A DNA stretch of 64,000 nt from Planctomycetota bacterium (GTDB lineage: Bacteria; Planctomycetota; Planctomycetia; Isosphaerales; Isosphaeraceae), in the NCBI GenBank assembly GCA_021791715.1, contig JAJYWB010000009.1, positions 41,272-105,271 on the forward strand, given 5' to 3'. Below are positions 6,186 to 49,535 of this stretch, piece after piece (position 1 is the first letter of the stretch; each line of letters begins with the position of its first letter). The notes under the pieces were generated by a model. That model had not been told where the DNA came from. It searched no databases and saw nothing but the letters and a program-made list of their open reading frames with translations. The position numbers and the translations under genes are program-made.

Positions 6186-6960
6186 GTTCTCGATCGCCGC
6201 GAACCGCGAATCGAAGATTTTCACCACGGATGACACGGATTCCACGGATAAGAATAGATAAAATATATACGGTATAATGTTAGATGTCAAACGGCGATCA
6301 CCGCGCGCCGCGAACCGCGAACCGCGAATCGAAGTTTTTCACCACGGATGACACGGATTCCACGGATAAGAATAGATAGAATACATACGTTATAATGTCG
6401 AATGTCAAACGGCGATCGCCGGGCGCCGCGAACCGCGAATCGAAGTTTTTCACCACGGATGACACGGACTCCACGGATAAGAATAGATAAAATATATACG
6501 GTATAATGTTAGATGTCAAACGGCGATCACCGCGCGCCGCGAACCGCGAATCGAAGATTTTCACCACGGATGACACGGATTCCACGGATAAGAATAGAGA
6601 GAATATATACGTTATAATGTCGAATGTCAAAAGGCGATCATCGTGCGCCGCGAACCGCGAATCGAAGATTTTCACCACGGATGACACGGATTCCACGGAT
6701 AAGAATAGATAAAATATATACGGTATAATGTCGAATGTCAAACGGCGATCGCCGGGCGCCGCGAACCGCGAATCGAAGATTTTCACCACGGATGACACGG
6801 ATTCCACGGATAAGAATAGATAGAATATATACGTTATAATGTCGAATGTCAAACGGCGATCGCCGGGCGACGCGAACCGCGAACCGCGAATTGAAGAATT
6901 TCACCACGGACGACACGGACCGCACGGACAGGATAAATAATATATATTTTTTATTTTAGA
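6186..6960. repeat. intergenic tandem repeat array, 7 units of 110-119 bp (two alternating unit variants plus a degenerate terminal unit)
   Basis: Anchor 'gaatcgaag(a/t)ttttcaccacgg' recurs at 6208, 6326, 6437, 6548, 6658, 6769 and 6888. Each unit is a GC-rich block (cgatcgccgcgaaccgcgaatcgaagattttcaccacggatgacacggattccacggat) plus an AT-rich block containing 'tataatgt'. The minus-frame ORF 6298-6852 is just the repeat translated. Confidence 0.9.
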
Positions 6961-7210
6961 TAATGTATAACAATACAATGGATCGATTGATTCGCGAGGT
7001 CGCGTCGTCGAAGCCGTCGTAGTGCGCAAAATCGACGTGATGGATGAAATCGTCGCTTCAGTTCGTTTGAAATTGGAAATACACGCCCGCGGCGCCGCCG
7101 TGTGCGTGAGATCCGGAGGAACAGGAGGTCGAATCGAGCCAGCTCGAAGGAGATACCGAGACGATTCGATATCCGCCGCGTTGGAAAATCGGTTTCGATC
7201 GACTCGCCTC

Positions 7211-7502
7211 GAGCGATGATGCAAAAAATCAACACGATCGCCACGATGATTTCATAATATACGGATATTATAGCGTACAATCTCTCAAAATCCGCAGAAA
7301 AACAAGCCTTTTCATTCATCAGTAACCCCACTCCAAAAAAATCGAGAAAAACCAAAAACGGGTCTTGCAATCCGATCGCGCGGTCGTTAGCGTAAGGATT
7401 TTAGATCCATCGATGTGATTCGGAATTTCTCGATTCACCTATCGATCGATCCTCTCTCGGGCGGGCCTTCGCCGCCCCCCGCGTCGTCCTCAGGTTTGGG
7501 TC
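7211..7502 (+). promoter_or_regulatory. conserved ~290-bp non-coding leader element, copy A (second copy at 48042-48332)
   Basis: Colinear nucleotide identity with 48042-48332. Shared blocks include aaaaatcaacac, aaaaacaagc, aaaacgggt(c/a)ttgcaatcc, gatgtgattcgga, cgatcgatcctctctcgggcggg, cccccgcgtcgtc(c/t)tc(a/g)ggtttgggtc. Lies 131 bp upstream of the ATG at 7633. Confidence 0.8.
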
Positions 7503-7632
7503 AAGAGAATGTATCTCCGGGAGGGCCAGGCGTCGACCGAGCCGACATTTTTCAATTCAGGAATAAGAAACGGCACACATGACCGTTCGCTCTTACAATG
7601 AGTTCGCGTCGCATGAACTAAGGATGCAATAG

Positions 7633-9000
7633 ATGAACTCACATGAAATTGCGAATTCGAGTACGTTCGACTCTAAGGGAATGCTTTCCGATCAACATCA
7701 TTGCGCGAAAGTTTTAACCAGAATGGACGATGCTTGTACGTACACGTGGAATTATCGCAACGAGATGACGGGATTCAGCGAGAAGAATTCGTCGGGGACG
7801 GTGATCTCTTCGGGAACGTATACGTATGATTCGCTCGATCGTCGCATCGGCGTCGACGAGACATCGGGCGGAACGACGACGCAGACGTGGATCGTGTACA
7901 ACGGGAATTCAAACACGCCTTACGCGCAGTTCAACGGCTCGGGCACGCTTTTGGAGCGTTATCTCGAGGGACCGTCTTACTTTCCGGGAGTGACGGGGAT
8001 GATTGCGCGCACGAACGCCTCGGGCCTGACCGACTGGTACTTGACGGGCAAACTCGGCTCGGTGCGCGACATCGTCAATACGTCGGGGACGGTGATCGAT
8101 CACATCTCTTTCGGAGCGTTCGGTTCGATCCGCGCCGAGACCAATCCGAGCTCGAGGAGCCAATTCAAGTTCGACGGCATGCAGAACGATTCGATCACAG
8201 GGTTGTACAACGATTGGCATCGGGGGTATTCGTCCACAAATGGTAGGTTCGAATCATTCGATCCGATGTCTTTTCAATCGAAGGAGACCAATCTCTATCT
8301 CTTCGTGGAGAACGGTCCAATCAACAATCTCGATCCAACAGGAGATATCATCGATTCCATCCTCGAAATGGAATATGGATTTGCCTCACAAAATAACATT
8401 CTGGGTCATCATGGAGGATTCGGCGGTGGGCATGGCGGTATCGGCGGAGGACACGGCGGATTGGGAGGTGGGCAAGGAGCCGGAGGTGGTGGACATGTAG
8501 GGATCGGCGGTGGCCATGGAGGCTTCCCAGGAGGTGGACATGGAGGATTGCCGGGAGCTGGACATGGAGGACTTCCAGGAGGTGGTCATATCGGATCACC
8601 CCGAGTGGGAAATAACCCTGGACATCCATCGCATACACCACCATCTACTGTAACAATTGGTCTTACAGGAGGTGGAGGTACGGTTCACATCGGAATTGAT
8701 CCAGGAAGCGATGGAGCTGTTACGACCACTCCAAATGATCCAAATCCTGGAGTCACACAAATCACCGGCTCGTTAGGAGGAAGTTGGGCTCCTCCTTACG
8801 GTAATCCTTTCAATCCTAATTTTGGTGGTGGAATCTATTACAATCCTCGATGGGGGACGCCTTTTTTCCCATTCAATGTCGGCAATACACCGATCGGATT
8901 TAATCCACCTGGATTTCCTATCGCCATTCAAGGTCCATTGATTCCAATCCCTGGACCACTCGGTCCGTTCGGCCCGAACGGACCTTGGTTTGATCCTTGA
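7633..9000 (+). CDS. orphan RHS fragment: terminal YD repeats + RHS repeat-associated core + Gly/His/Pro-rich C-terminal domain
   Basis: 'YTYDSLDRRIGV' YD repeat. Core signature 'GLYNDWHRGYSSTNGRFESFDPM...NLYLFVENGPINNLDPTGD'. Then GHHGGFGGGHGGIGGGHGG... and a Pro/Gly/Asn/Phe-rich tail. No N-terminal RHS body or signal peptide; ORF opens right after a stop. Confidence 0.75.
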   Translation: MNSHEIANSSTFDSKGMLSDQHHCAKVLTRMDDACTYTWNYRNEMTGFSEKNSSGTVISSGTYTYDSLDRRIGVDETSGGTTTQTWIVYNGNSNTPYAQFNGSGTLLERYLEGPSYFPGVTGMIARTNASGLTDWYLTGKLGSVRDIVNTSGTVIDHISFGAFGSIRAETNPSSRSQFKFDGMQNDSITGLYNDWHRGYSSTNGRFESFDPMSFQSKETNLYLFVENGPINNLDPTGDIIDSILEMEYGFASQNNILGHHGGFGGGHGGIGGGHGGLGGGQGAGGGGHVGIGGGHGGFPGGGHGGLPGAGHGGLPGGGHIGSPRVGNNPGHPSHTPPSTVTIGLTGGGGTVHIGIDPGSDGAVTTTPNDPNPGVTQITGSLGGSWAPPYGNPFNPNFGGGIYYNPRWGTPFFPFNVGNTPIGFNPPGFPIAIQGPLIPIPGPLGPFGPNGPWFDP

Positions 9001-9039
9001 TTCTGATATATTTCCTTTATCCCATAAAAGGAGACTCCG

Positions 9040-11016
9040 ATGTCGATTTTATTTATATCCTTGTTCATCATTACTCAATCTTCCGACGTCGATCGGAATG
9101 ATTCAAGCTCGAACTTGATGAATGCGCCGGAAACCAAGAATTCGGTATTACAAGAGCGCATCAATCGAGCGTTATCGGCCGAATCCCAAGGTGATTCGGC
9201 GCTTCGTTCGCGAGAATTGATCAAATCGATTTTGATCGATCCGGATAACATAAAGGCTCGCGGCTTGCTCGGTTTCGTTCGATTCGATTCGAAGTGGATC
9301 AAGCCCGATCGTATCGGAGTCGATATGGCGCGATCCGCCGTGGATAGCGCGCTTTATAAAGAATATGAAACAATCAAATCCAAAACAAAAAACAACGCCG
9401 ACGATCAGTGGAAAACCGCGATTTGGTGTGAGGAACATGGATTATCCGAAGAGGCTCGGGCTCATTTTCACGTCGTCGGCTACCTCGATCCCACCAGAAC
9501 CGCGGCTTGGAATAAACTGGGATTTAAAAAATATCATGGCGAGTGGATGTCCGAATCGGATCGAAAGGAGATGATCGCCGAAGAACAAACGAGACGTAAA
9601 GCCGACGAATATTGGACGAAGCGTCTTTCGAATTGGAAAAAGATGCTGGCGATTCCTTCACAACGCGATCGAGCGCATTTATACCTTTCGACGGTCGACG
9701 ATCCGACGGCGGTTCCCTCGATTCGGCGGATCTTGATAGCGGGCGACGCGGATTGTCAGATCGAGGCGATCAAGATTTTGAAAAAAATCGACACGATCGA
9801 GGCGTCGGTCGCTTTGTCGACTTTATTGATCCACGGTCGTAATCGGGAGGTGGTCGATCGGACCTCCGATGAACTCAAAAAGAAACCTATCGATGATTAT
9901 CTACCTTTCTTAATTTCAAGATTAACGCATGAACTGAAGTACGAGATCCATTATTCCTCATTAACGGGAATGCCCGACGAAATGGTCGTCGATTTCGGAG
10001 ATTTTTTCGTTAAACGAAAATATGAATACAAAAAAAGTTTGCCTCAAGATACGATTTTTATGCTCAATAAGATGAAACGCCTCAACATCGATCCGTTCGA
10101 TCCTTCGGTTCGAAATTATCTTGAATCGCATCACGTCACAGCGCTCGAAAATTTCGTGAACGATTTTGATTTTATGAAAGACGACTACGGGTTTTTCAAT
10201 CCGAAATTCGCCGTGACCGGTAAAGCGTCGACCGGAATCCTATTCGGCAAGTCGTTTTACAACAATATCGACGAGTATCAAAGGTCCAATATGATAACTT
10301 TAAATAACATCCTGACAGACATAGAATTCATTAAGATATTCAACGGAGCGAGCCTCGTCACAAATCAAAGGATTATACATTATCTGGTCGAAATTTCGGG
10401 CAAAAATTTCGGCGCGAACTCGAAAGATTGGATGGAATGGTTTATTAAATACTCCGCGTATTCAACCGCATCGACGAACACAAGACTCTTAATTAAGCCT
10501 ATATTTGATCAGCTTGTGCCGAATTACTACACGCCGAATTACCTGAGAACACGATCGACGTTTTGTTTCGCTAAAGACACTCCGGTCGTTTGCGTTCAAG
10601 GATATAAATCGATTCAATCTTTGAAACCAGGCGATTTAATTTTGTCCCAAGACGTGACGAACGGCGAATTGAGTTTCAAGCCCGTTTTACGGGCAATAAG
10701 CAATCCGCCCCAACCCGCGATCGATATCGATTTCGGAAGAGATAAGATCACATCGACAGATATCCATCGTTTCTGGATCTCCGGCAAAGGCTGGGCGCCC
10801 GCTCGAGACTTGCATCCAGGCGATCGAATTCGCGCTTTGAACGGCGTTCTCGAGGTCAAAAAGATCGAACATCGTCCGGTTCAACCCGTTTTCAATCTCG
10901 TGGTCGCGGAGAATCACGACTTTTTCGTCGGTCATTCGGCCGCTCTCGTGCACGACAACGATTACGCTCCGCGTGTCGAGAGACCGTTCGATCGCGTCTC
11001 GAATGATTCGCGATGA
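9040..11016 (+). CDS. secreted hypothetical protein with C-terminal Hint (Hedgehog/intein-like) domain
   Basis: Signal-like N-terminus MSILFISLFIITQSS. C-terminal ~140 aa run from 'CFAKDTPVVCVQGYKSIQSLKPGDLILSQD' (Cys-1 block) through 'TDIH' (TxxH block) to 'HDFFVGHSAALVHDND' (terminal HN-like block). Only ~18 aa follow. Distinctly lower GC than the flanks. Confidence 0.6.
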   Translation: MSILFISLFIITQSSDVDRNDSSSNLMNAPETKNSVLQERINRALSAESQGDSALRSRELIKSILIDPDNIKARGLLGFVRFDSKWIKPDRIGVDMARSAVDSALYKEYETIKSKTKNNADDQWKTAIWCEEHGLSEEARAHFHVVGYLDPTRTAAWNKLGFKKYHGEWMSESDRKEMIAEEQTRRKADEYWTKRLSNWKKMLAIPSQRDRAHLYLSTVDDPTAVPSIRRILIAGDADCQIEAIKILKKIDTIEASVALSTLLIHGRNREVVDRTSDELKKKPIDDYLPFLISRLTHELKYEIHYSSLTGMPDEMVVDFGDFFVKRKYEYKKSLPQDTIFMLNKMKRLNIDPFDPSVRNYLESHHVTALENFVNDFDFMKDDYGFFNPKFAVTGKASTGILFGKSFYNNIDEYQRSNMITLNNILTDIEFIKIFNGASLVTNQRIIHYLVEISGKNFGANSKDWMEWFIKYSAYSTASTNTRLLIKPIFDQLVPNYYTPNYLRTRSTFCFAKDTPVVCVQGYKSIQSLKPGDLILSQDVTNGELSFKPVLRAISNPPQPAIDIDFGRDKITSTDIHRFWISGKGWAPARDLHPGDRIRALNGVLEVKKIEHRPVQPVFNLVVAENHDFFVGHSAALVHDNDYAPRVERPFDRVSNDSR

Positions 11017-11072
11017 GAAGGATTCGCATTATTCACCAATAACCTCGATATTATTTTCTTGGAGATTCGATT

Positions 11073-12569
11073 ATGACTCATCCTCGTTCATTTATGACAC
11101 TCTTTTTCTTCATCTTCACGATTGCATCGAACGGATTCGGGCAGACTGCGAACGATTTATTACAAAAAGCGGTCGCCTTGATAGCCGAAGACAAGATCGA
11201 CGAGGCGATCGAATCGCTCAATCGTTCTATCGCATTGGATCCTTCAATTTCAAGAGCATATAGTCACCTCGGTTTCTGTCTTATTGATAAGCAAGTATCT
11301 ACAAAAACTATCGATTGTTTCGAAAAAGCGATCAAGCTTGATCAAAAAGATTTTCTTCCTCATTTTTACCTGGGAACTTATTATATGATGCAATTGGAAA
11401 AATATGATAGCGCTCTTAATCATTTTCTACAAAGCATCGATTTATATCCGGTTTTTGATGTGTCTTATTTGTATTCTGGAATCTGCTCTTTAAATTTAAA
11501 TAAAGATGATGATGCAATGAAGTACATAATTAAAGGCTTAACTCTAATACAAAACAAGCAAAGTTCCTATAAAGGATTATTCTACTTTTATAAAGGATTA
11601 ATTGAACTTCAATCCGGTCGTTTTGATTCAGCGGAAAACGACTTGAAAAACTCGATGAAAATGATCGGAGATCCTAAAGTCTATCTTCTACTCGGCTCTT
11701 TGTCTGATATTCAAGGCGATCATTCCGAATCGATAGCATACAACGCGATTATATTAAAAAATGATATGGAACTACTAAAATCATATAATACAAAAACTAA
11801 TATAGGTGCGGTCGTGTTTAAAACCGATCGGATCAATCAGTCGAATCAACTTGTTGTTTTGGGTGCGGCGTATCATCGCATAGGAGATATGGATAAGGCG
11901 TTGAATCGACTAAATAGAGCCTTGCGGATCGTGGAAAACAACTCATTCGCGTTGACCGAACGCGCATATCTCTATTTGCATTGTGGAAATCTTGAAGCAT
12001 CTATCAATGATCTGAATAAATCCATGGAAATTTGCCCCTCCAAATCGAAAAATTACCTATTAAAATCGGCGGCGGAGATAACGATCAATCCCAAGGACGC
12101 TCCGGAACTCGCCAAAAACTTCGTCAAATTACGTTCCTGGAAGGATCCGGATTCGACGATCGCCACGATAATCGGTTCGCTCGGGGCGATTAAGGCAGGG
12201 GACAAAACGACGTCGACGTCTCTGATAGACGAGGCGATCAAACACTCCAAAAAGAACGTGTGGCCCTATCCGCTCCTCAAGTATCTTCGCGGAGAATTCG
12301 ATGAGAATCTACTCAATAAATCGGCTCGTACCCCCGATCAAAAAAGCGACGCTCAAGCCGTTATCGGTTTGATCGCGGTCGCTCGCGGTAGAAAAGACAA
12401 GGCGTCTGAGCATTTTCATTGGCTCCTCAAACAAGGAAATCCTCGATCGCTCTATTTTGATATCGCTATGAATGAATTGAGAAAAATTGAAGGAAGGAAA
12501 AGCGTCGACGACGCCGTCGCACAATATTGCTCAAAACTCTATAAATCATACATGAACACAAAAAAGTAA
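11073..12569 (+). CDS. TPR repeat protein with signal peptide
   Basis: Signal MTLFFFIFTIASNGFGQ. Multiple 34-aa TPR-like repeats (AYSHLGFCLIDKQ..., HFYLGTYYMMQLEKYDSAL..., YLLLGSLSDIQGD...). AT-rich. Confidence 0.75.
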   Translation: MTHPRSFMTLFFFIFTIASNGFGQTANDLLQKAVALIAEDKIDEAIESLNRSIALDPSISRAYSHLGFCLIDKQVSTKTIDCFEKAIKLDQKDFLPHFYLGTYYMMQLEKYDSALNHFLQSIDLYPVFDVSYLYSGICSLNLNKDDDAMKYIIKGLTLIQNKQSSYKGLFYFYKGLIELQSGRFDSAENDLKNSMKMIGDPKVYLLLGSLSDIQGDHSESIAYNAIILKNDMELLKSYNTKTNIGAVVFKTDRINQSNQLVVLGAAYHRIGDMDKALNRLNRALRIVENNSFALTERAYLYLHCGNLEASINDLNKSMEICPSKSKNYLLKSAAEITINPKDAPELAKNFVKLRSWKDPDSTIATIIGSLGAIKAGDKTTSTSLIDEAIKHSKKNVWPYPLLKYLRGEFDENLLNKSARTPDQKSDAQAVIGLIAVARGRKDKASEHFHWLLKQGNPRSLYFDIAMNELRKIEGRKSVDDAVAQYCSKLYKSYMNTKK

Positions 12570-12663
12570 AATTATAACACAATATTATTTTCTATTCTTA
12601 TCACATATTGATTAGAATGTTTTGTTTCATTAAGACCGATATTATTCGACTATCGCCGTTTTC

Positions 12664-13863
12664 ATGATGAAAATCCTCTTCGCTTCAGCCCACTGCGTGA
12701 TCGATCCATCAAGCGGCGCGGCGATAGCAACCCGCGAACTCCTCGAATCGCTCGTCGCGCTAGGAGACGATTGCCGCGCGTTCTGCATGGGAATCTTCGA
12801 TTACCACCACGAAACACGACCCGAAGACTTTTTATCGTCGCTCGAAGCCGAGATTCATATGGCGCTCGCCGAAGCCGCTTCAGGCGCCGAGGTATCGATC
12901 TTCGACCTCGCGTTAAACGGCGTGAGAACGACGATCGTTCCCACGCAATCGAGCCGCGCCGATCGATCGCCGACACACGCCGAATCGATCGCATTTCTCG
13001 ATCTCTACGAAGTCATCCTCGATCGCTTCCAACCCGACCTCGTTTTAACCTACGGCGGGCATCCCGTCGGTATCGAGCTGATGAAACGCGCTCGCAAACG
13101 GAACATCGCCGTCGTTTTCCAGATCCATAACTTCGCGTATAAAGATCGCCAGGCGTTCGCATTCGCGTCACATATCCTTGTTCCTTCACAATTCAGTCGC
13201 GATTATTATCAAAGAACGCTGGGACTCGACGCCAAGGCGATCGACCCTCCGTTTCGTCTCGATCGCACGTTCGTTGCCGAAACCGAGCGTAAACCTCGTT
13301 ATCTCACATTCGTCAATCCCGATCCTTCGAAGGGGTTCACGTTATGGGCTCGGATCGCTTATGAACTCAGTCGTCGCAGGCCCGATATCCCGCTCCTTGT
13401 CGTTGAAAGCCGTGGCAAGGCGTTCGATCTCGTTCACCTTGATATCGATCTCTCGGATCACCCCAATTTGCATCGCATGGCGAATACGCACGATCCCAGA
13501 CACTTTTATCGCGAGTCGCGCGCGATCTTAATCCCTTCGCTTTTTCTCGAATCGTTCGGCCTGACGGCGCGCGAGGAGCTCGTCAATTCGATCCCCGTGC
13601 TCGCGTCGGATCGGGGCGCCTTACCTGAAACGCTCGGATCGGCGGGATTCACATTTCCGATCCCTTCGCGATACACGCCGATTACGCTCGAAGCGCCGAC
13701 CGCCGAGGAAATCTATCCCTGGATCGATAAGATCGAACGCCTTTGGGACGATCCGGCGTTCGAGGCCAAGGCTCATGAAAAAGCGTGGAACGAATCGCTG
13801 AGATGGGATCCGATCATAATCGCAAAACGATATCACGAGCATTTTGAGTCGATCGCGCGGTGA
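12664..13863 (+). CDS. glycosyltransferase family 4 (GT-B, group 1)
   Basis: C-terminal 'PSLFLESFGLTAREELVNSIPVLASDRGALPE' matches the GT4 E-x7-E/donor-binding region. N-terminal Rossmann half. Confidence 0.7.
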   Translation: MMKILFASAHCVIDPSSGAAIATRELLESLVALGDDCRAFCMGIFDYHHETRPEDFLSSLEAEIHMALAEAASGAEVSIFDLALNGVRTTIVPTQSSRADRSPTHAESIAFLDLYEVILDRFQPDLVLTYGGHPVGIELMKRARKRNIAVVFQIHNFAYKDRQAFAFASHILVPSQFSRDYYQRTLGLDAKAIDPPFRLDRTFVAETERKPRYLTFVNPDPSKGFTLWARIAYELSRRRPDIPLLVVESRGKAFDLVHLDIDLSDHPNLHRMANTHDPRHFYRESRAILIPSLFLESFGLTAREELVNSIPVLASDRGALPETLGSAGFTFPIPSRYTPITLEAPTAEEIYPWIDKIERLWDDPAFEAKAHEKAWNESLRWDPIIIAKRYHEHFESIAR

Positions 13864-45900: not shown

Positions 45901-46140
45901 CCCCTTTGCTATTTACCTCGATATGAATGATTATTTTAAAATGCCGGCTCGGTCGGCGCCTCGCCCTCCCGACAAACACCCTCCATGTTGTAACTTACCG
46001 CGATATTCGGCGCGTCGCCCCCGCTGTAAACGTACTCCTATGTAAATCATATCGCGAAATACGCCGATTAAAAATAATCGGACAATTCGCGGGCGAACCG
46101 CGATCGCGCCTCACCCGCATCATAAAATCCACTCGCTTGA

Positions 46141-48041: not shown

Positions 48042-48332
48042 GAGCGATGTTTCCAAAAATCAACACCATCGCGACAATCTATTCATGATATAAGACATTT
48101 TCCCTAGATAATCGCCGGCTAAACTCTGAAAAACAAGCGTTTTTATGCATCCCGAACCCGCGTGCAAAAAAATGAGAAAATCGGAAAACGGGTATTGCAA
48201 TCCAATGGCGCCGCCGTAACGTTATGGAATTTAGACCGATCGACGTGATTCGGATCTCCATGATTCACCAACCGATCGATCCTCTCTCGGGCGGGATTTT
48301 CATCGCCCCCGCGTCGTCTTCGGGTTTGGGTC
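48042..48332 (+). promoter_or_regulatory. conserved ~290-bp non-coding leader element, copy B (see 7211-7502)
   Basis: Colinear with copy A; 124 bp upstream of the ATG at 48456. The small ORFs overlapping it on both strands differ between the copies and are probably not coding. Confidence 0.8.
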
Positions 48333-48455: not shown

Positions 48456-49535
48456 TTGAGGCTGGATGAAATGATAACGCATCATGATTCGGATTCCGGT
48501 TTTATAATCGATCAACCATCCTACATGATTGCTTTTTCGAGTGTACTCGCATTTGTTGTGATTTTGTCGATTATCCATTGCTTCGCACCACGATTATTGA
48601 GCAGATCGTCCACCATTCATGGAGACCGAACGCCTAAAATGGTGTTACCGGACGAACCTCTCATGTTATCACATCGAGTTCCCGGAGAACTGGTTGAAGG
48701 TACATTTAATATACGAAATGTCGGTAAGGCGCCGTTGGAATATCAGCTCTTTCCATCGTGTGGTTGCGTCATCCTCACCCCGCTCGATGGACGGATAGCA
48801 TCCTCAGAATTCCAGCCTATTCGCGTCGGAATGAAAACACTGGGATACGGTCAGGAAAAAAGTGTTCTCATTCACCTCAAAACAAACGATCTATCGTTGG
48901 TTGAGACTGATTATCGTGTTACAGCATTCTGTCCGTCGCCTCTTGAAACGACTCCGAGTGTGATCAATTTGGGGAGGATACCACCGGCTGTCGAGAAAAA
49001 CATTCGATTGACAGTCGCTTATAAGTCGGCTCAATCTTACGCGATGACGACTTCCAATCACGAGCGAATCGGGATGCACCGGATAAGCTCGAAGGGACTC
49101 GTTGACGAATGGGATCTAAGAATACATGCCGGATCAAAGATAGGATTTGTAACCGATCAGATCCGGATCGATATCGAAGGCTATTCGGTTCCGATGACGA
49201 TCCCAATCGTTGGAGAAATTGTCGATGAGATGATCATTTCTCCATCATATGTGGCCTTGATGAAGAAACAGAGAGGGAAAGGATATCGCGATGTGATTTT
49301 GATCGCGTCTCGGAGGGATGGCGAACCGTTTGGAAGAATCGACAGGATCGATAAACCTGATCATATCTTATTTCATGAGATAGATCGGGAAGAATCGATC
49401 AAACGTCGACGCATACGAGTCGAATTTCGCGGAGATCATCCGCAAGATTTATCGGAACCGTCGATCGTCCGCTTCTATTTTATGGGAATGAAACGGCCCG
49501 TGGTCGTTCGATTCCAGCCTTGCCGTGATCGTTGA
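48456..49535 (+). CDS. DUF1573-like secreted/membrane-anchored protein
   Basis: Signal anchor IAFSSVLAFVVILSII. 'GTFNIRNVGKAPLEYQLFPSCGCVILTP' matches the DUF1573 F.F.N.G..PL.I....SCGCT block. AT-richer than the genome average. Confidence 0.55.
   Translation: MRLDEMITHHDSDSGFIIDQPSYMIAFSSVLAFVVILSIIHCFAPRLLSRSSTIHGDRTPKMVLPDEPLMLSHRVPGELVEGTFNIRNVGKAPLEYQLFPSCGCVILTPLDGRIASSEFQPIRVGMKTLGYGQEKSVLIHLKTNDLSLVETDYRVTAFCPSPLETTPSVINLGRIPPAVEKNIRLTVAYKSAQSYAMTTSNHERIGMHRISSKGLVDEWDLRIHAGSKIGFVTDQIRIDIEGYSVPMTIPIVGEIVDEMIISPSYVALMKKQRGKGYRDVILIASRRDGEPFGRIDRIDKPDHILFHEIDREESIKRRRIRVEFRGDHPQDLSEPSIVRFYFMGMKRPVVVRFQPCRDR

What the first reader, a model, noticed from the sequence alone, without database searches (positions are those of the whole stretch)
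7633..9000. Orphan RHS core + Gly/His-rich C-terminal module without the RHS body
The ORF starts directly after a stop. It contains only the last YD repeats, the canonical RHS repeat-associated core ending DPTGD, and a ~225-aa tail. The tail is dominated by (G-H-G-G) repeats followed by a Pro/Gly/Asn/Phe-rich segment. This composition is unlike common nuclease, deaminase or ADP-ribosyltransferase toxin tips. Orphan RHS C-terminal modules are normally found downstream of a full-length rhs gene with an immunity gene after them. Here the upstream neighbour is the conserved leader and tandem array, and no small immunity-like ORF follows.
Basis: partly seen in the sequence, partly recalled or inferred. 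Interest (0 to 1): 0.55.

Follow-up and report, generated by a model that had tools for sequence, protein, structure and literature searches.

The report
Stored Rhs toxin tip, Gly/His-rich
This is a spare, body-less copy of the end of an Rhs toxin gene in a planctomycete (family Isosphaeraceae): a known kind of swappable toxin cassette, unusual only in its glycine/histidine-repeat tip, which has no detectable relatives and is conserved by selection.

Summary
ORF 7633-9000 (455 aa) starts right after a TAG. It has a few YD hairpins, an Rhs-associated core (TIGR03696, E 8e-15) ending DPTGD, and a 217-aa tail of nine GGGHGG[ILF](P) units followed by a Pro/Gly/Asn/Phe-rich stretch. No RHS body lies elsewhere in the 64 kb, in any frame.

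It is one of about 20 short (370-460 aa) Isosphaeraceae proteins that share the first ~200 residues and carry unrelated tips, so it is an orphan rhs cassette.

The same tail, followed by the same two downstream genes (a 658-aa protein ending in a PT-HINT domain, and a TPR protein), occurs twice more:
- on a longer RHS body (L002);
- 100% identical in another MAG behind a different leader and left flank (L095), with a sharp breakpoint in the conserved YD segment.

This indicates exchange by homologous recombination.

The tail matches no Pfam family or PDB sequence, and nothing real among 1.84 billion representative proteins. AlphaFold gives no fold. Yet dN/dS is 0.075 in the repeats.

A 420-bp leader shared with the lineage's longer rhs gene supplies the ATG. 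The 35 codons it contributes evolve neutrally.

Verdict: a new member of a known kind. The tip's activity is unknown. Interest is modest.

The parts
7213..7632 (+). Conserved 420-bp leader. It holds a promoter-like TCAACA-18-CATAAT at 7229-7258 and an SD-like AAGGA at 7621-7625.
   Evidence: It is 70-80% identical and collinear upstream of short rhs genes in L003/4/5, L008 and L011, and upstream of the longer gene in L009 (7994-8380). The 5' boundary is sharp at 7210-7213. There is no Rfam hit, the fold z-score is 0.28, and there is no covariation support.
7633..7737 (+). 35 leader-derived codons with no RHS homology
   Evidence: The ATG is conserved in the L009 leader but is out of frame with the long ORF there; by my reading of the alignment it opens a 22-codon uORF. 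dN/dS is 0.62-1.54 in six pairwise comparisons, yet the frame is open in all four DNA copies. AlphaFold pLDDT is 34-42. There is no hydrophobic segment.
7738..8223 (+). Conserved recombination block: the last YD hairpins and the 5' part of the Rhs core (residues 36-197)
   Evidence: It is 83-93% identical in DNA to 12 other loci, including the longer genes in L009 (89%) and L002 (84%). dN/dS is 0.13-0.26. The breakpoint against L095 falls at about 7760-7790.
8224..8346 (+). Variable 3' part of the Rhs core, with the two protease aspartates (D210 at 8260-8262, D234 at 8332-8334) and the DPTGD motif
   Evidence: BLAST matches to paralogues end at 8174-8268. Amino-acid identity drops from 0.90 to 0.46. 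D210, D234 and G237 are at least 90% conserved among 31 homologues. They correspond to D1407 and D1429 of TseI, where cleavage follows DPLGL (PMC7070923 is not the id; the paper is PMC7170923).
8347..8598 (+). Start of the tip (IIDSILEMEYGFASQNNIL) and the nine Gly/His repeat units GGGHGG[ILF](P), residues 239-322
   Evidence: The repeat units are listed. dN/dS against the L002 allele is 0.075 with dS 0.84. Eight of the nine repeat His residues are conserved, and there is a single one-codon indel. pLDDT is below 50.
8599..9000 (+). Pro/Gly/Asn/Phe-rich C-terminal part of the tip (residues 323-455) and the stop codon
   Evidence: dN/dS is 0.16 for residues 323-424. The last ~30 residues have diverged, with indels (dN/dS about 0.65). 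No homologue was found.
9040..11016 (+). 658-aa protein with a hydrophobic N-terminus and a C-terminal PT-HINT domain, co-inherited with the tip
   Evidence: PF07591 matches residues 517-633 at E=3.5e-14. The gene follows the tip in the window, L002 and L095. It is only 31% identical between the window and L002 alleles. GC is 0.46 against 0.58-0.60 in the flanks.
11073..12569 (+). 498-aa TPR protein with a signal-peptide-like N-terminus, co-inherited with the tip
   Evidence: TPR families match at E down to 1e-24. It is 39% identical to the L002 allele overall, but the last ~130 aa are highly conserved. GC is 0.40.
12658..13863 (+). Right-hand anchor of the variable island: a GT4 glycosyltransferase gene
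   Evidence: From 12658 onward, L004 is 99.4% identical to the window although it carries a different cassette and a different left flank. L003 matches at 92.7% and L002 at 85%.

Best explanation
This is an orphan (5'-truncated) rhs toxin cassette of an Isosphaeraceae planctomycete.

Shown:
- A 420-bp leader is fused to about four YD hairpins. The same leader precedes the lineage's longer rhs gene.
- The Rhs core keeps both autoprotease aspartates.
- The tip is lineage-restricted, of low complexity, and predicted to be unstructured.
- The gene belongs to a population of such cassettes. They share a ~0.5-kb YD/core segment and differ completely downstream of it.
- The identical cassette (tip plus the PT-HINT and TPR genes) is found behind a different leader and left flank. 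A diverged allele of it is found on a longer RHS body.

Inferred:
- With no shell, no signal peptide and no trafficking domain, the 455-aa product cannot deliver anything on its own.
- The locus is therefore a stored tip. Homologous recombination through the conserved segment moves it on and off the longer, signal-peptide-bearing rhs gene and between orphan loci, carrying the downstream genes along.
- The differing left flanks are the rearrangements such crossovers leave.
- Once on a long body, the core protease would cut after DPTGD and free the 217-aa tip.
- The tip most likely acts without enzymatic activity at the cell envelope, through its regularly spaced His residues (metal binding or self-assembly) and its aromatic/Pro-rich end.
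- The exported HINT and TPR proteins are the best candidates for protection.
For: Family with a constant 5' part and unrelated tips:
- The hit list and sequences show it.
- Both catalytic aspartates and the core are conserved.

Same tip elsewhere:
- It sits on a longer RHS body followed by the same gene trio and the GT4 gene (L002).
- L095 is 100% identical from about 7783 to 12460. Its leader and first 35 codons are only 55-70% identical, and its left flank is different.
- L004 has a 99.4% identical right flank with another cassette and another left flank.

Selection and recombination signals:
- dS in the shared YD block (0.35) is less than half that in the tail (0.84-1.47), as expected if paralogues homogenise the block.
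- The tail is under purifying selection: dN/dS 0.075 and 0.16.

Export:
- The short form has no hydrophobic N-terminus.
- The longer L009 gene has a signal-peptide-like segment, and both downstream proteins have hydrophobic N-termini.

Precedent:
- Orphan rhs fragments are activated by recombination with the main gene in Salmonella (PMC3967940).
- Standalone toxin-immunity cassettes are a general feature of polymorphic toxins (PMC3482391).
Against: - No intact long rhs gene with this tip has been seen. The L002 body carries an in-frame TGA where L009 has GGC, and it runs off the contig.
- Even the 'long' L009 gene has only about 350 aa of YD repeats plus core, too little for a usual cocoon.
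- No rhs gene lies within 7.6 kb upstream or 55 kb downstream.
- Unlike Salmonella orphans, this one has a promoter-like leader, an SD-like site, an ATG and an open frame.
- HINT and TPR are only 31-39% identical between alleles whose tips are 71-88% identical. That is odd for cognate immunity proteins.
- Toxicity, metal binding and cleavage are all untested. The P1 residue is Asp rather than the usual Leu/Trp.
- L095 is a single metagenome assembly, so a chimeric join inside the repeat cannot be excluded.
Confidence: 0.65

Rival explanations
1. The short gene is expressed in its own right from the leader's promoter and ATG and acts inside the producing cell, like the internally expressed Rhs toxin/antitoxin pairs of Salmonella. 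It would not be only a silent reserve.
For: - A promoter-like TCAACA-18-CATAAT sits at the 5' edge of the leader and is conserved in six copies.
- The SD-like AAGGA and the ATG are conserved.
- The 35 linking codons stay open in all four DNA copies, while the other two frames hold 1-3 stops each.
- Twelve database proteins start MNAH/MNSH.
- Precedent: PMC7043789.
Against: - The 35 N-terminal codons evolve neutrally (dN/dS 0.6-1.5).
- The open frame could reflect ascertainment, because only intact ORFs are called as proteins.
- There is no small cytoplasmic antitoxin. Both neighbours look exported.
- There are no expression data.
- A promoter would equally serve to express the downstream genes.
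Confidence: 0.2
2. The Gly/His tail is not a toxin. It would be a linker, an adhesive, a metal-binding stretch or a filler. The conflict-relevant pair would be the downstream HINT protein and its TPR partner, which merely sit next to an rhs stub.
For: - The strongly diverged, low-GC block between alleles runs from the last ~60 tail residues through HINT and two thirds of TPR (window ~8808-12109). It does not cover the repeats.
- The tail is predicted to be unstructured and has no catalytic motif.
- PT-HINT is a polymorphic-toxin processing domain.
Against: - The tail occupies exactly the tip position after DPxG, as toxin tips do in all siblings.
- Toxins inside Rhs shells are held unfolded (PMC11461821 abstract).
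- Strong purifying selection on the repeats argues against filler.
- The HINT domain is at the extreme C-terminus with no toxin domain after it.
Confidence: 0.15
3. The locus is a decaying remnant: a deletion derivative of an L002-type gene on its way to loss.
For: - The leader is joined directly to the last YD repeats, as an internal deletion of about 1.7 kb relative to L009 would produce.
- The L002 body already carries a nonsense codon.
Against: - The ORF is intact.
- dN/dS is 0.075-0.16 across 186 tail codons.
- The 4.7-kb cassette is 100% identical in two contexts.
- The same junction is shared by more than 12 paralogues or alleles with other tips, so it predates this tip.
Confidence: 0.05

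Closest known systems
Orphan rhs-CT/immunity cassettes (Salmonella Typhimurium LT2 rhs-orphan, Koskiniemi et al. 2014, PMC3967940; standalone cassettes of polymorphic toxin systems, Zhang et al. 2012, PMC3482391)
   Same: - It is 5'-truncated and keeps only a stretch of conserved core-coding DNA homologous to a longer rhs gene.
- The tip is unrelated to those of its siblings.
- Linked downstream genes travel with the tip.
- There is no export signal.
- Comparative evidence shows exchange by homologous recombination through the conserved stretch.
   Different: - It is not arrayed behind a main rhs gene. The copies are dispersed across the genome (seven loci on separate contigs in one MAG).
- It carries the main gene's upstream leader with a promoter-like site, an SD-like site and an in-frame ATG.
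- The downstream genes are large exported repeat/HINT proteins (658 and 498 aa), not a small immunity protein.
- The 'main' gene seen in this lineage is itself short (about 715 aa).
Internally expressed Rhs toxin-antitoxin modules (Starsta et al. 2020, PMC7043789)
   Same: An rhs fragment lacking the delivery part, with its own transcription and translation signals.
   Different: Expression is not shown here. There is no recognisable cytoplasmic antitoxin, and the tip is not a known toxin.
Self-cleaving Rhs/Tc core (TseI, Pei et al. 2020, PMC7170923)
   Same: Both catalytic aspartates and the D-P-x-G motif are present, with spacing close to TseI (24 against 22 residues).
   Different: P1 is Asp (DPTGD) instead of Leu. 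The cocoon that holds the cleaved tip is absent.
Gly/His-rich metal-dependent antimicrobial peptides (shepherin I, GYGGHGGHGG..., PMC10698721); from my own knowledge also the Cu-binding PHGGGWGQ octarepeats of prion protein
   Same: Regularly spaced His residues in a poly-Gly background. The 7-8-residue unit has one His, one hydrophobic residue and often one Pro.
   Different: The resemblance is in composition only, with no homology. The tail is 31% Gly and 5.5% His, against 68% and 29% in shepherin I. It is ten times longer and has an extra Pro/Asn/Phe-rich half. Metal binding is untested.

Membership tests
Rhs / YD-repeat polymorphic toxin (full-length) | Rhs repeat-associated core domain (TIGR03696) ending in a DPxG motif | tested here: met
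   E=8e-15, 55.1 bits against a cut-off of 32.5, residues 162-237. The core ends DPTGD.
Rhs / YD-repeat polymorphic toxin (full-length) | Two catalytic aspartates of the core autoprotease | tested here: met
   D210 and D234 are at least 90% conserved in 31 homologues. They align with the TPDP...DPLGL consensus and with D1407/D1429 of TseI. Cleavage itself was not tested.
Rhs / YD-repeat polymorphic toxin (full-length) | Long run of YD repeats forming a closed beta-cocoon | tested here: not met
   Only about 170 residues of hairpins are present (AlphaFold strands 34-208). PF05593 is below threshold (E 0.049). No other RHS sequence is in the window. Distant relatives have 1955-2721-aa ORFs.
Rhs / YD-repeat polymorphic toxin (full-length) | N-terminal trafficking or secretion domain | tested here: not met
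   The first 35 residues are leader-derived, hydrophilic (best 15-residue KD window -0.02) and evolve neutrally.
Rhs / YD-repeat polymorphic toxin (full-length) | Homologues alike over the body but differing in the C-terminal tip | tested here: met
   About 20 proteins are 60-82% identical over residues 1-240 and have unrelated tails.
Orphan rhs-CT cassette | 5'-truncated fragment retaining core-coding DNA homologous to a longer rhs gene | tested here: met
   Window 7734-8231 is 89% identical to the L009 long gene. Window 7734-8808 is 84% identical to L002.
Orphan rhs-CT cassette | Located downstream of a main rhs gene | tested here: not met
   No rhs lies within 7.6 kb upstream or 55 kb downstream. 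Sibling orphans are likewise isolated on their contigs.
Orphan rhs-CT cassette | Lacks translation initiation and export signals | tested here: inconclusive
   There is no export signal. However, an ATG, an SD-like AAGGA and a promoter-like site are present and conserved. Expression is unknown.
Orphan rhs-CT cassette | Cognate immunity gene immediately downstream | tested here: inconclusive
   Two co-inherited genes follow (HINT 658 aa, TPR 498 aa) in all three instances. They match no immunity family and are only 31-39% identical between alleles.
Orphan rhs-CT cassette | Exchange by recombination through the conserved segment | tested here: met
   The breakpoint against L095 is at about 7760-7790, with 100% identity downstream and 55-70% upstream. 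The tip is also found on the longer L002 body. This evidence is comparative only.
Known toxin domain families (Pfam, NCBIfam, PDB) | Significant sequence match of the tip | tested here: not met
   Pfam gave 0 families at E<=1. PDB phmmer gave 0 at E<=10. Among 1.84 billion representatives only the tail's own cluster and two spurious hits appeared. No plasmid record matches beyond residue 257.
Gly/His-rich metal-binding antimicrobial peptides | Metal-dependent activity of GGH-type repeats | not testable with these tools
   Only composition and repeat spacing could be compared.

The most novel reading that the evidence does not exclude
The GGGHGG[ILF](P) repeats plus the Pro/Asn/Phe-rich end would be a new class of non-enzymatic Rhs payload. 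This would be a disordered, His-spaced polypeptide that binds metal and self-assembles, or inserts into the envelope. It would be neutralised by exported HINT/TPR proteins whose hypervariable block co-evolves with the tail's C-terminus. The leader-fused short genes would be expressed on their own rather than being silent spares.
Probability: 0.15. Interest if true: 0.6.

Novelty: new member of a known kind. Interest (0 to 1): 0.3.

Why it matters
The finding adds a planctomycete example of Rhs tip-swapping, a group where these systems are barely studied. Recombination breakpoints are visible directly in natural populations.

It also flags a selected but fold-less Gly/His-repeat tip. That tip would broaden the range of Rhs payloads if it proves toxic.

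Otherwise this is an ordinary orphan cassette, and it explains why the gene looks incomplete.

Tried and rejected
It is uninformative. The exhaustive HMMER scan replaced it.
2. The two non-self HMMER hits are a repeat ORF and a metazoan EGF protein, so both are spurious.
3. A JGI metagenome scan with tail peptides found no relative.
4. By eye the mid-tail (TVHIGIDPGS...GSWAPP) resembled the ends of the P0007/P0008/P0010 tips. hhalign gave a probability of 1.8%, so this was rejected.
5. The leader as a structured RNA: no Rfam match, fold z-score 0.28, and an unfavourable alifold covariation term with five sequences. It is not supported, though too few sequences were available to exclude it.
6. 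The AlphaFold models of the tail have pLDDT 31-45. No fold search was run, because matches to such a model would be meaningless. A polyglycine-II type fold cannot be excluded from a two-sequence alignment.
7. A frameshifted longer RHS upstream was rejected.
8. A search with the L009 N-terminal domain found no further long genes of this lineage apart from P0002.
9. The weak GT4-conflict Pfam hit of the right-flank glycosyltransferase (26.4 bits against a cut-off of 26) was not relied on.

Full report
**1. What is there**

The ORF 7633-9000 (+) encodes 455 aa. A TAG lies in frame directly before the ATG, and AAGGA lies 8-12 nt upstream.

NCBIfam TIGR03696 (Rhs-associated core) matches residues 162-237 at E=8e-15. 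Pfam RHS_repeat is sub-threshold. AlphaFold nevertheless models a run of beta-hairpins over residues 34-208, confident for 30-110.

The core ends NNLDPTGD. The remaining 217 residues are 31% Gly and 14% Pro, with 12 His (5.5% of the tail), and have no Lys or Cys. They comprise nine GGGHGG[I/L/F](P) units and then a Pro/Gly/Asn/Phe-rich stretch.

tblastn with a 713-aa relative and with a 2622-aa RHS protein finds RHS sequence only at 7633-8349 in the whole 64 kb. No frameshifted body is therefore hidden upstream.

**2. Organism and family**

The window is part of a 214-kb ENA metagenome contig. Its close relatives in the species-representative genome set all come from one Isosphaeraceae MAG. 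The closest named protein is from Aquisphaera.

The protein search returned about 20 proteins of 370-460 aa that are 60-82% identical over the first ~240 residues and then completely different. Most begin MNAH/MNSH, followed by ~30 variable residues, and enter RHS sequence at the same point (TYTWNYRNEMTGF). Two other classes join RHS sequence at other points (FSEKNSSG; VDETSGG). These are 5'-truncated rhs modules with polymorphic tips.

More distant relatives include full-length RHS ORFs of 1955-2721 aa and tandem arrays of short modules.

**3. The leader**

Window 7213-7632 is 70-80% identical and collinear with the sequence upstream of the short genes in L003/4/5, L008 and L011. It also matches the sequence upstream of the one longer gene of this lineage, L009 (7994-8380), with a sharp 5' edge.

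In L009 the homologous ATG is out of frame with the long ORF. By my reading of the alignment it opens a 22-codon uORF. The long ORF starts further on (MDQMEPRN...) with a signal-peptide-like segment, a ~320-aa Ser/Thr/Gly-rich region, about 350 aa of YD repeats plus core, and a tip that runs off the contig.

The short genes therefore read from the leader's ATG straight into the last YD repeats. The 35 linking codons have dN/dS 0.62-1.54 in six comparisons, against 0.13-0.26 for the RHS part. Even so, the frame is open in all four DNA copies.

A promoter-like TCAACA-18-CATAAT lies at the leader's 5' edge and is conserved. There is no evidence for a structured RNA. The first 290 bp of the leader also occur at 48044-48332 before an unrelated gene, so that part is a dispersed upstream element.

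**4. Evidence for cassette exchange**

- **L002.** This contig carries a longer RHS body, orthologous to L009. It is followed by an allele of the same Gly/His tip, a PT-HINT protein, a TPR protein and the start of the same GT4 gene as in the window. The body has an in-frame TGA where L009 has GGC.
- **L095.** This contig, from another MAG, carries a cassette 100% identical to the window from about 7783 to its end (window 12460). Its leader and first 35 codons are only 55-70% identical, and its left flank is unrelated.
- **L004.** This contig is 99.4% identical to the window from 12658 onward. It holds another short rhs gene with another tip, a second rhs fragment and different small genes, behind yet another left flank.
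- **Edge of the conserved block.** Matches to paralogues end at 8174-8268, inside the core. The last ~40 core residues, including both aspartates, therefore belong to the variable part.
- **Divergence.** dS in the shared block is 0.35, against 0.84-1.47 in the tail.

Together these show recombination through the conserved 0.5-kb block. It reshuffles tips and flanks, which is what gave rhs ('rearrangement hot spot') its name. It is also the mechanism shown experimentally in Salmonella (PMC3967940) and generalised by Zhang et al. (PMC3482391).

One caveat applies. These are metagenome assemblies. The window's arrangement was assembled independently at least twice, but L095 only once.

**5. The tip**

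The tip matches no Pfam family and no PDB sequence. An exhaustive HMMER scan of 1.84 billion representative proteins found only its own cluster plus two spurious hits. No plasmid record extends past residue 257.

AlphaFold gives pLDDT 31-45 and no secondary structure. The alignment there has only two sequences, so this is weak evidence of disorder.

Against the L002 allele, the repeats have dN/dS 0.075 (dS 0.84) and residues 323-424 have 0.16. Eight of the nine repeat His residues are conserved, and the unit number differs by one codon. The last ~30 residues have diverged, with indels.

The tail is therefore a translated, selected polypeptide and not filler.

D210 and D234 align with the catalytic D1407 and D1429 of TseI. 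The P1 residue is Asp rather than Leu.

**6. The neighbours**

The next gene starts 39 nt after the stop, behind AAGGAG. It encodes 658 aa with a hydrophobic N-terminus and a PT-HINT domain at the extreme C-terminus. A 498-aa TPR protein with a signal-peptide-like N-terminus follows.

Both genes accompany the tip in all three instances. Between the window and L002, however, they are only 31% and 39% identical. Their GC is 0.36-0.46 against 0.58-0.60 for the genome.

The hypervariable block thus runs from the tail's last ~60 residues through two thirds of the TPR gene. Sibling orphans are followed by ordinary small ORFs of 184-343 aa.

**7. Interpretation**

Best supported, at 0.65: this is a stored rhs tip cassette that cannot deliver by itself and is exchanged by homologous recombination. 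Its tip is a new, probably non-enzymatic payload acting at the envelope. The exported neighbours are candidate protectors.

The first clause rests on comparative evidence. The activity of the tip and the role of the neighbours are inference.

Rivals:
- autonomous expression from the leader, as in PMC7043789 (0.2);
- the tail is not the toxin and HINT/TPR are a separate pair (0.15);
- a decaying remnant (0.05).

**8. Novelty and score**

The kind is known: orphan cassettes of Rhs polymorphic toxins. New here are the tip family, the dispersed leader-fused arrangement and the large exported neighbours.

None of these is surprising enough, or well enough supported functionally, to rank high. I file it as a new member of a known kind, interest 0.3.

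Noticed in passing
window 6195-6883: A 111-bp tandem array of 6.1 copies at 91% identity. Five units carry a near-consensus TTGACA-17-TATATT on the minus strand, pointing away from the rhs gene toward the M50 peptidase gene. The array is absent from the other rhs loci, so it is not part of the cassette.
   Followed up: partly
window 48044-48332: A second copy (75%) of the first 290 bp of the rhs leader. It lies upstream of an unrelated gene (48456-49535) with weak DUF1573/Ig-like hits. The leader's 5' part is therefore a dispersed upstream element.
   Followed up: partly
window 7516-7551; window 45938-45971 (-); L014 503-782: A 35-nt motif, CCGGGAGGGCGAGGCGCCGACCGAGCCGGCATTTT, lies inside the leader. 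It recurs on the other strand at 45.9 kb and as five copies, four of them in tandem, in L014. It is often followed by CACACGG.GGTTCGCCCTCCC, which could pair with its GGGAGGGCGA. It may be a small dispersed repeat or hairpin element.
   Followed up: partly
window 9040-11016: The PT-HINT domain sits at the extreme C-terminus of a 658-aa protein with no toxin domain after it. This is a Hedgehog-like layout in which cleavage would release the N-terminal 500 aa. The alleles are only 31% identical and GC is low.
   Followed up: partly
window 9000-12600: A low-GC island (0.37-0.48 against 0.58-0.60) coincides with the block that is hypervariable between alleles.
   Followed up: partly
L002 48-50: An in-frame TGA interrupts a YD repeat (GYDS*GRL) of the longer RHS body, where L009 has GGC. 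That is two substitutions, so it is unlikely to be a read error.
   Followed up: yes
L006 4559-11170: Two short rhs genes of another junction class lie on one contig. Each is preceded by an 80-aa ORF overlapping its start, and an IS66 transposase gene lies between them.
   Followed up: no
L095 2282-6285: The left flank of the identical cassette in the other MAG holds a run of unannotated genes ending in an AAA_22 ATPase. It may be a mobile element.
   Followed up: no
window 8962-8984: A perfect 10-bp hairpin (GGTCCGTTCG/CGAACGGACC) lies within the last codons of the ORF, just before the stop and the next gene.
   Followed up: no
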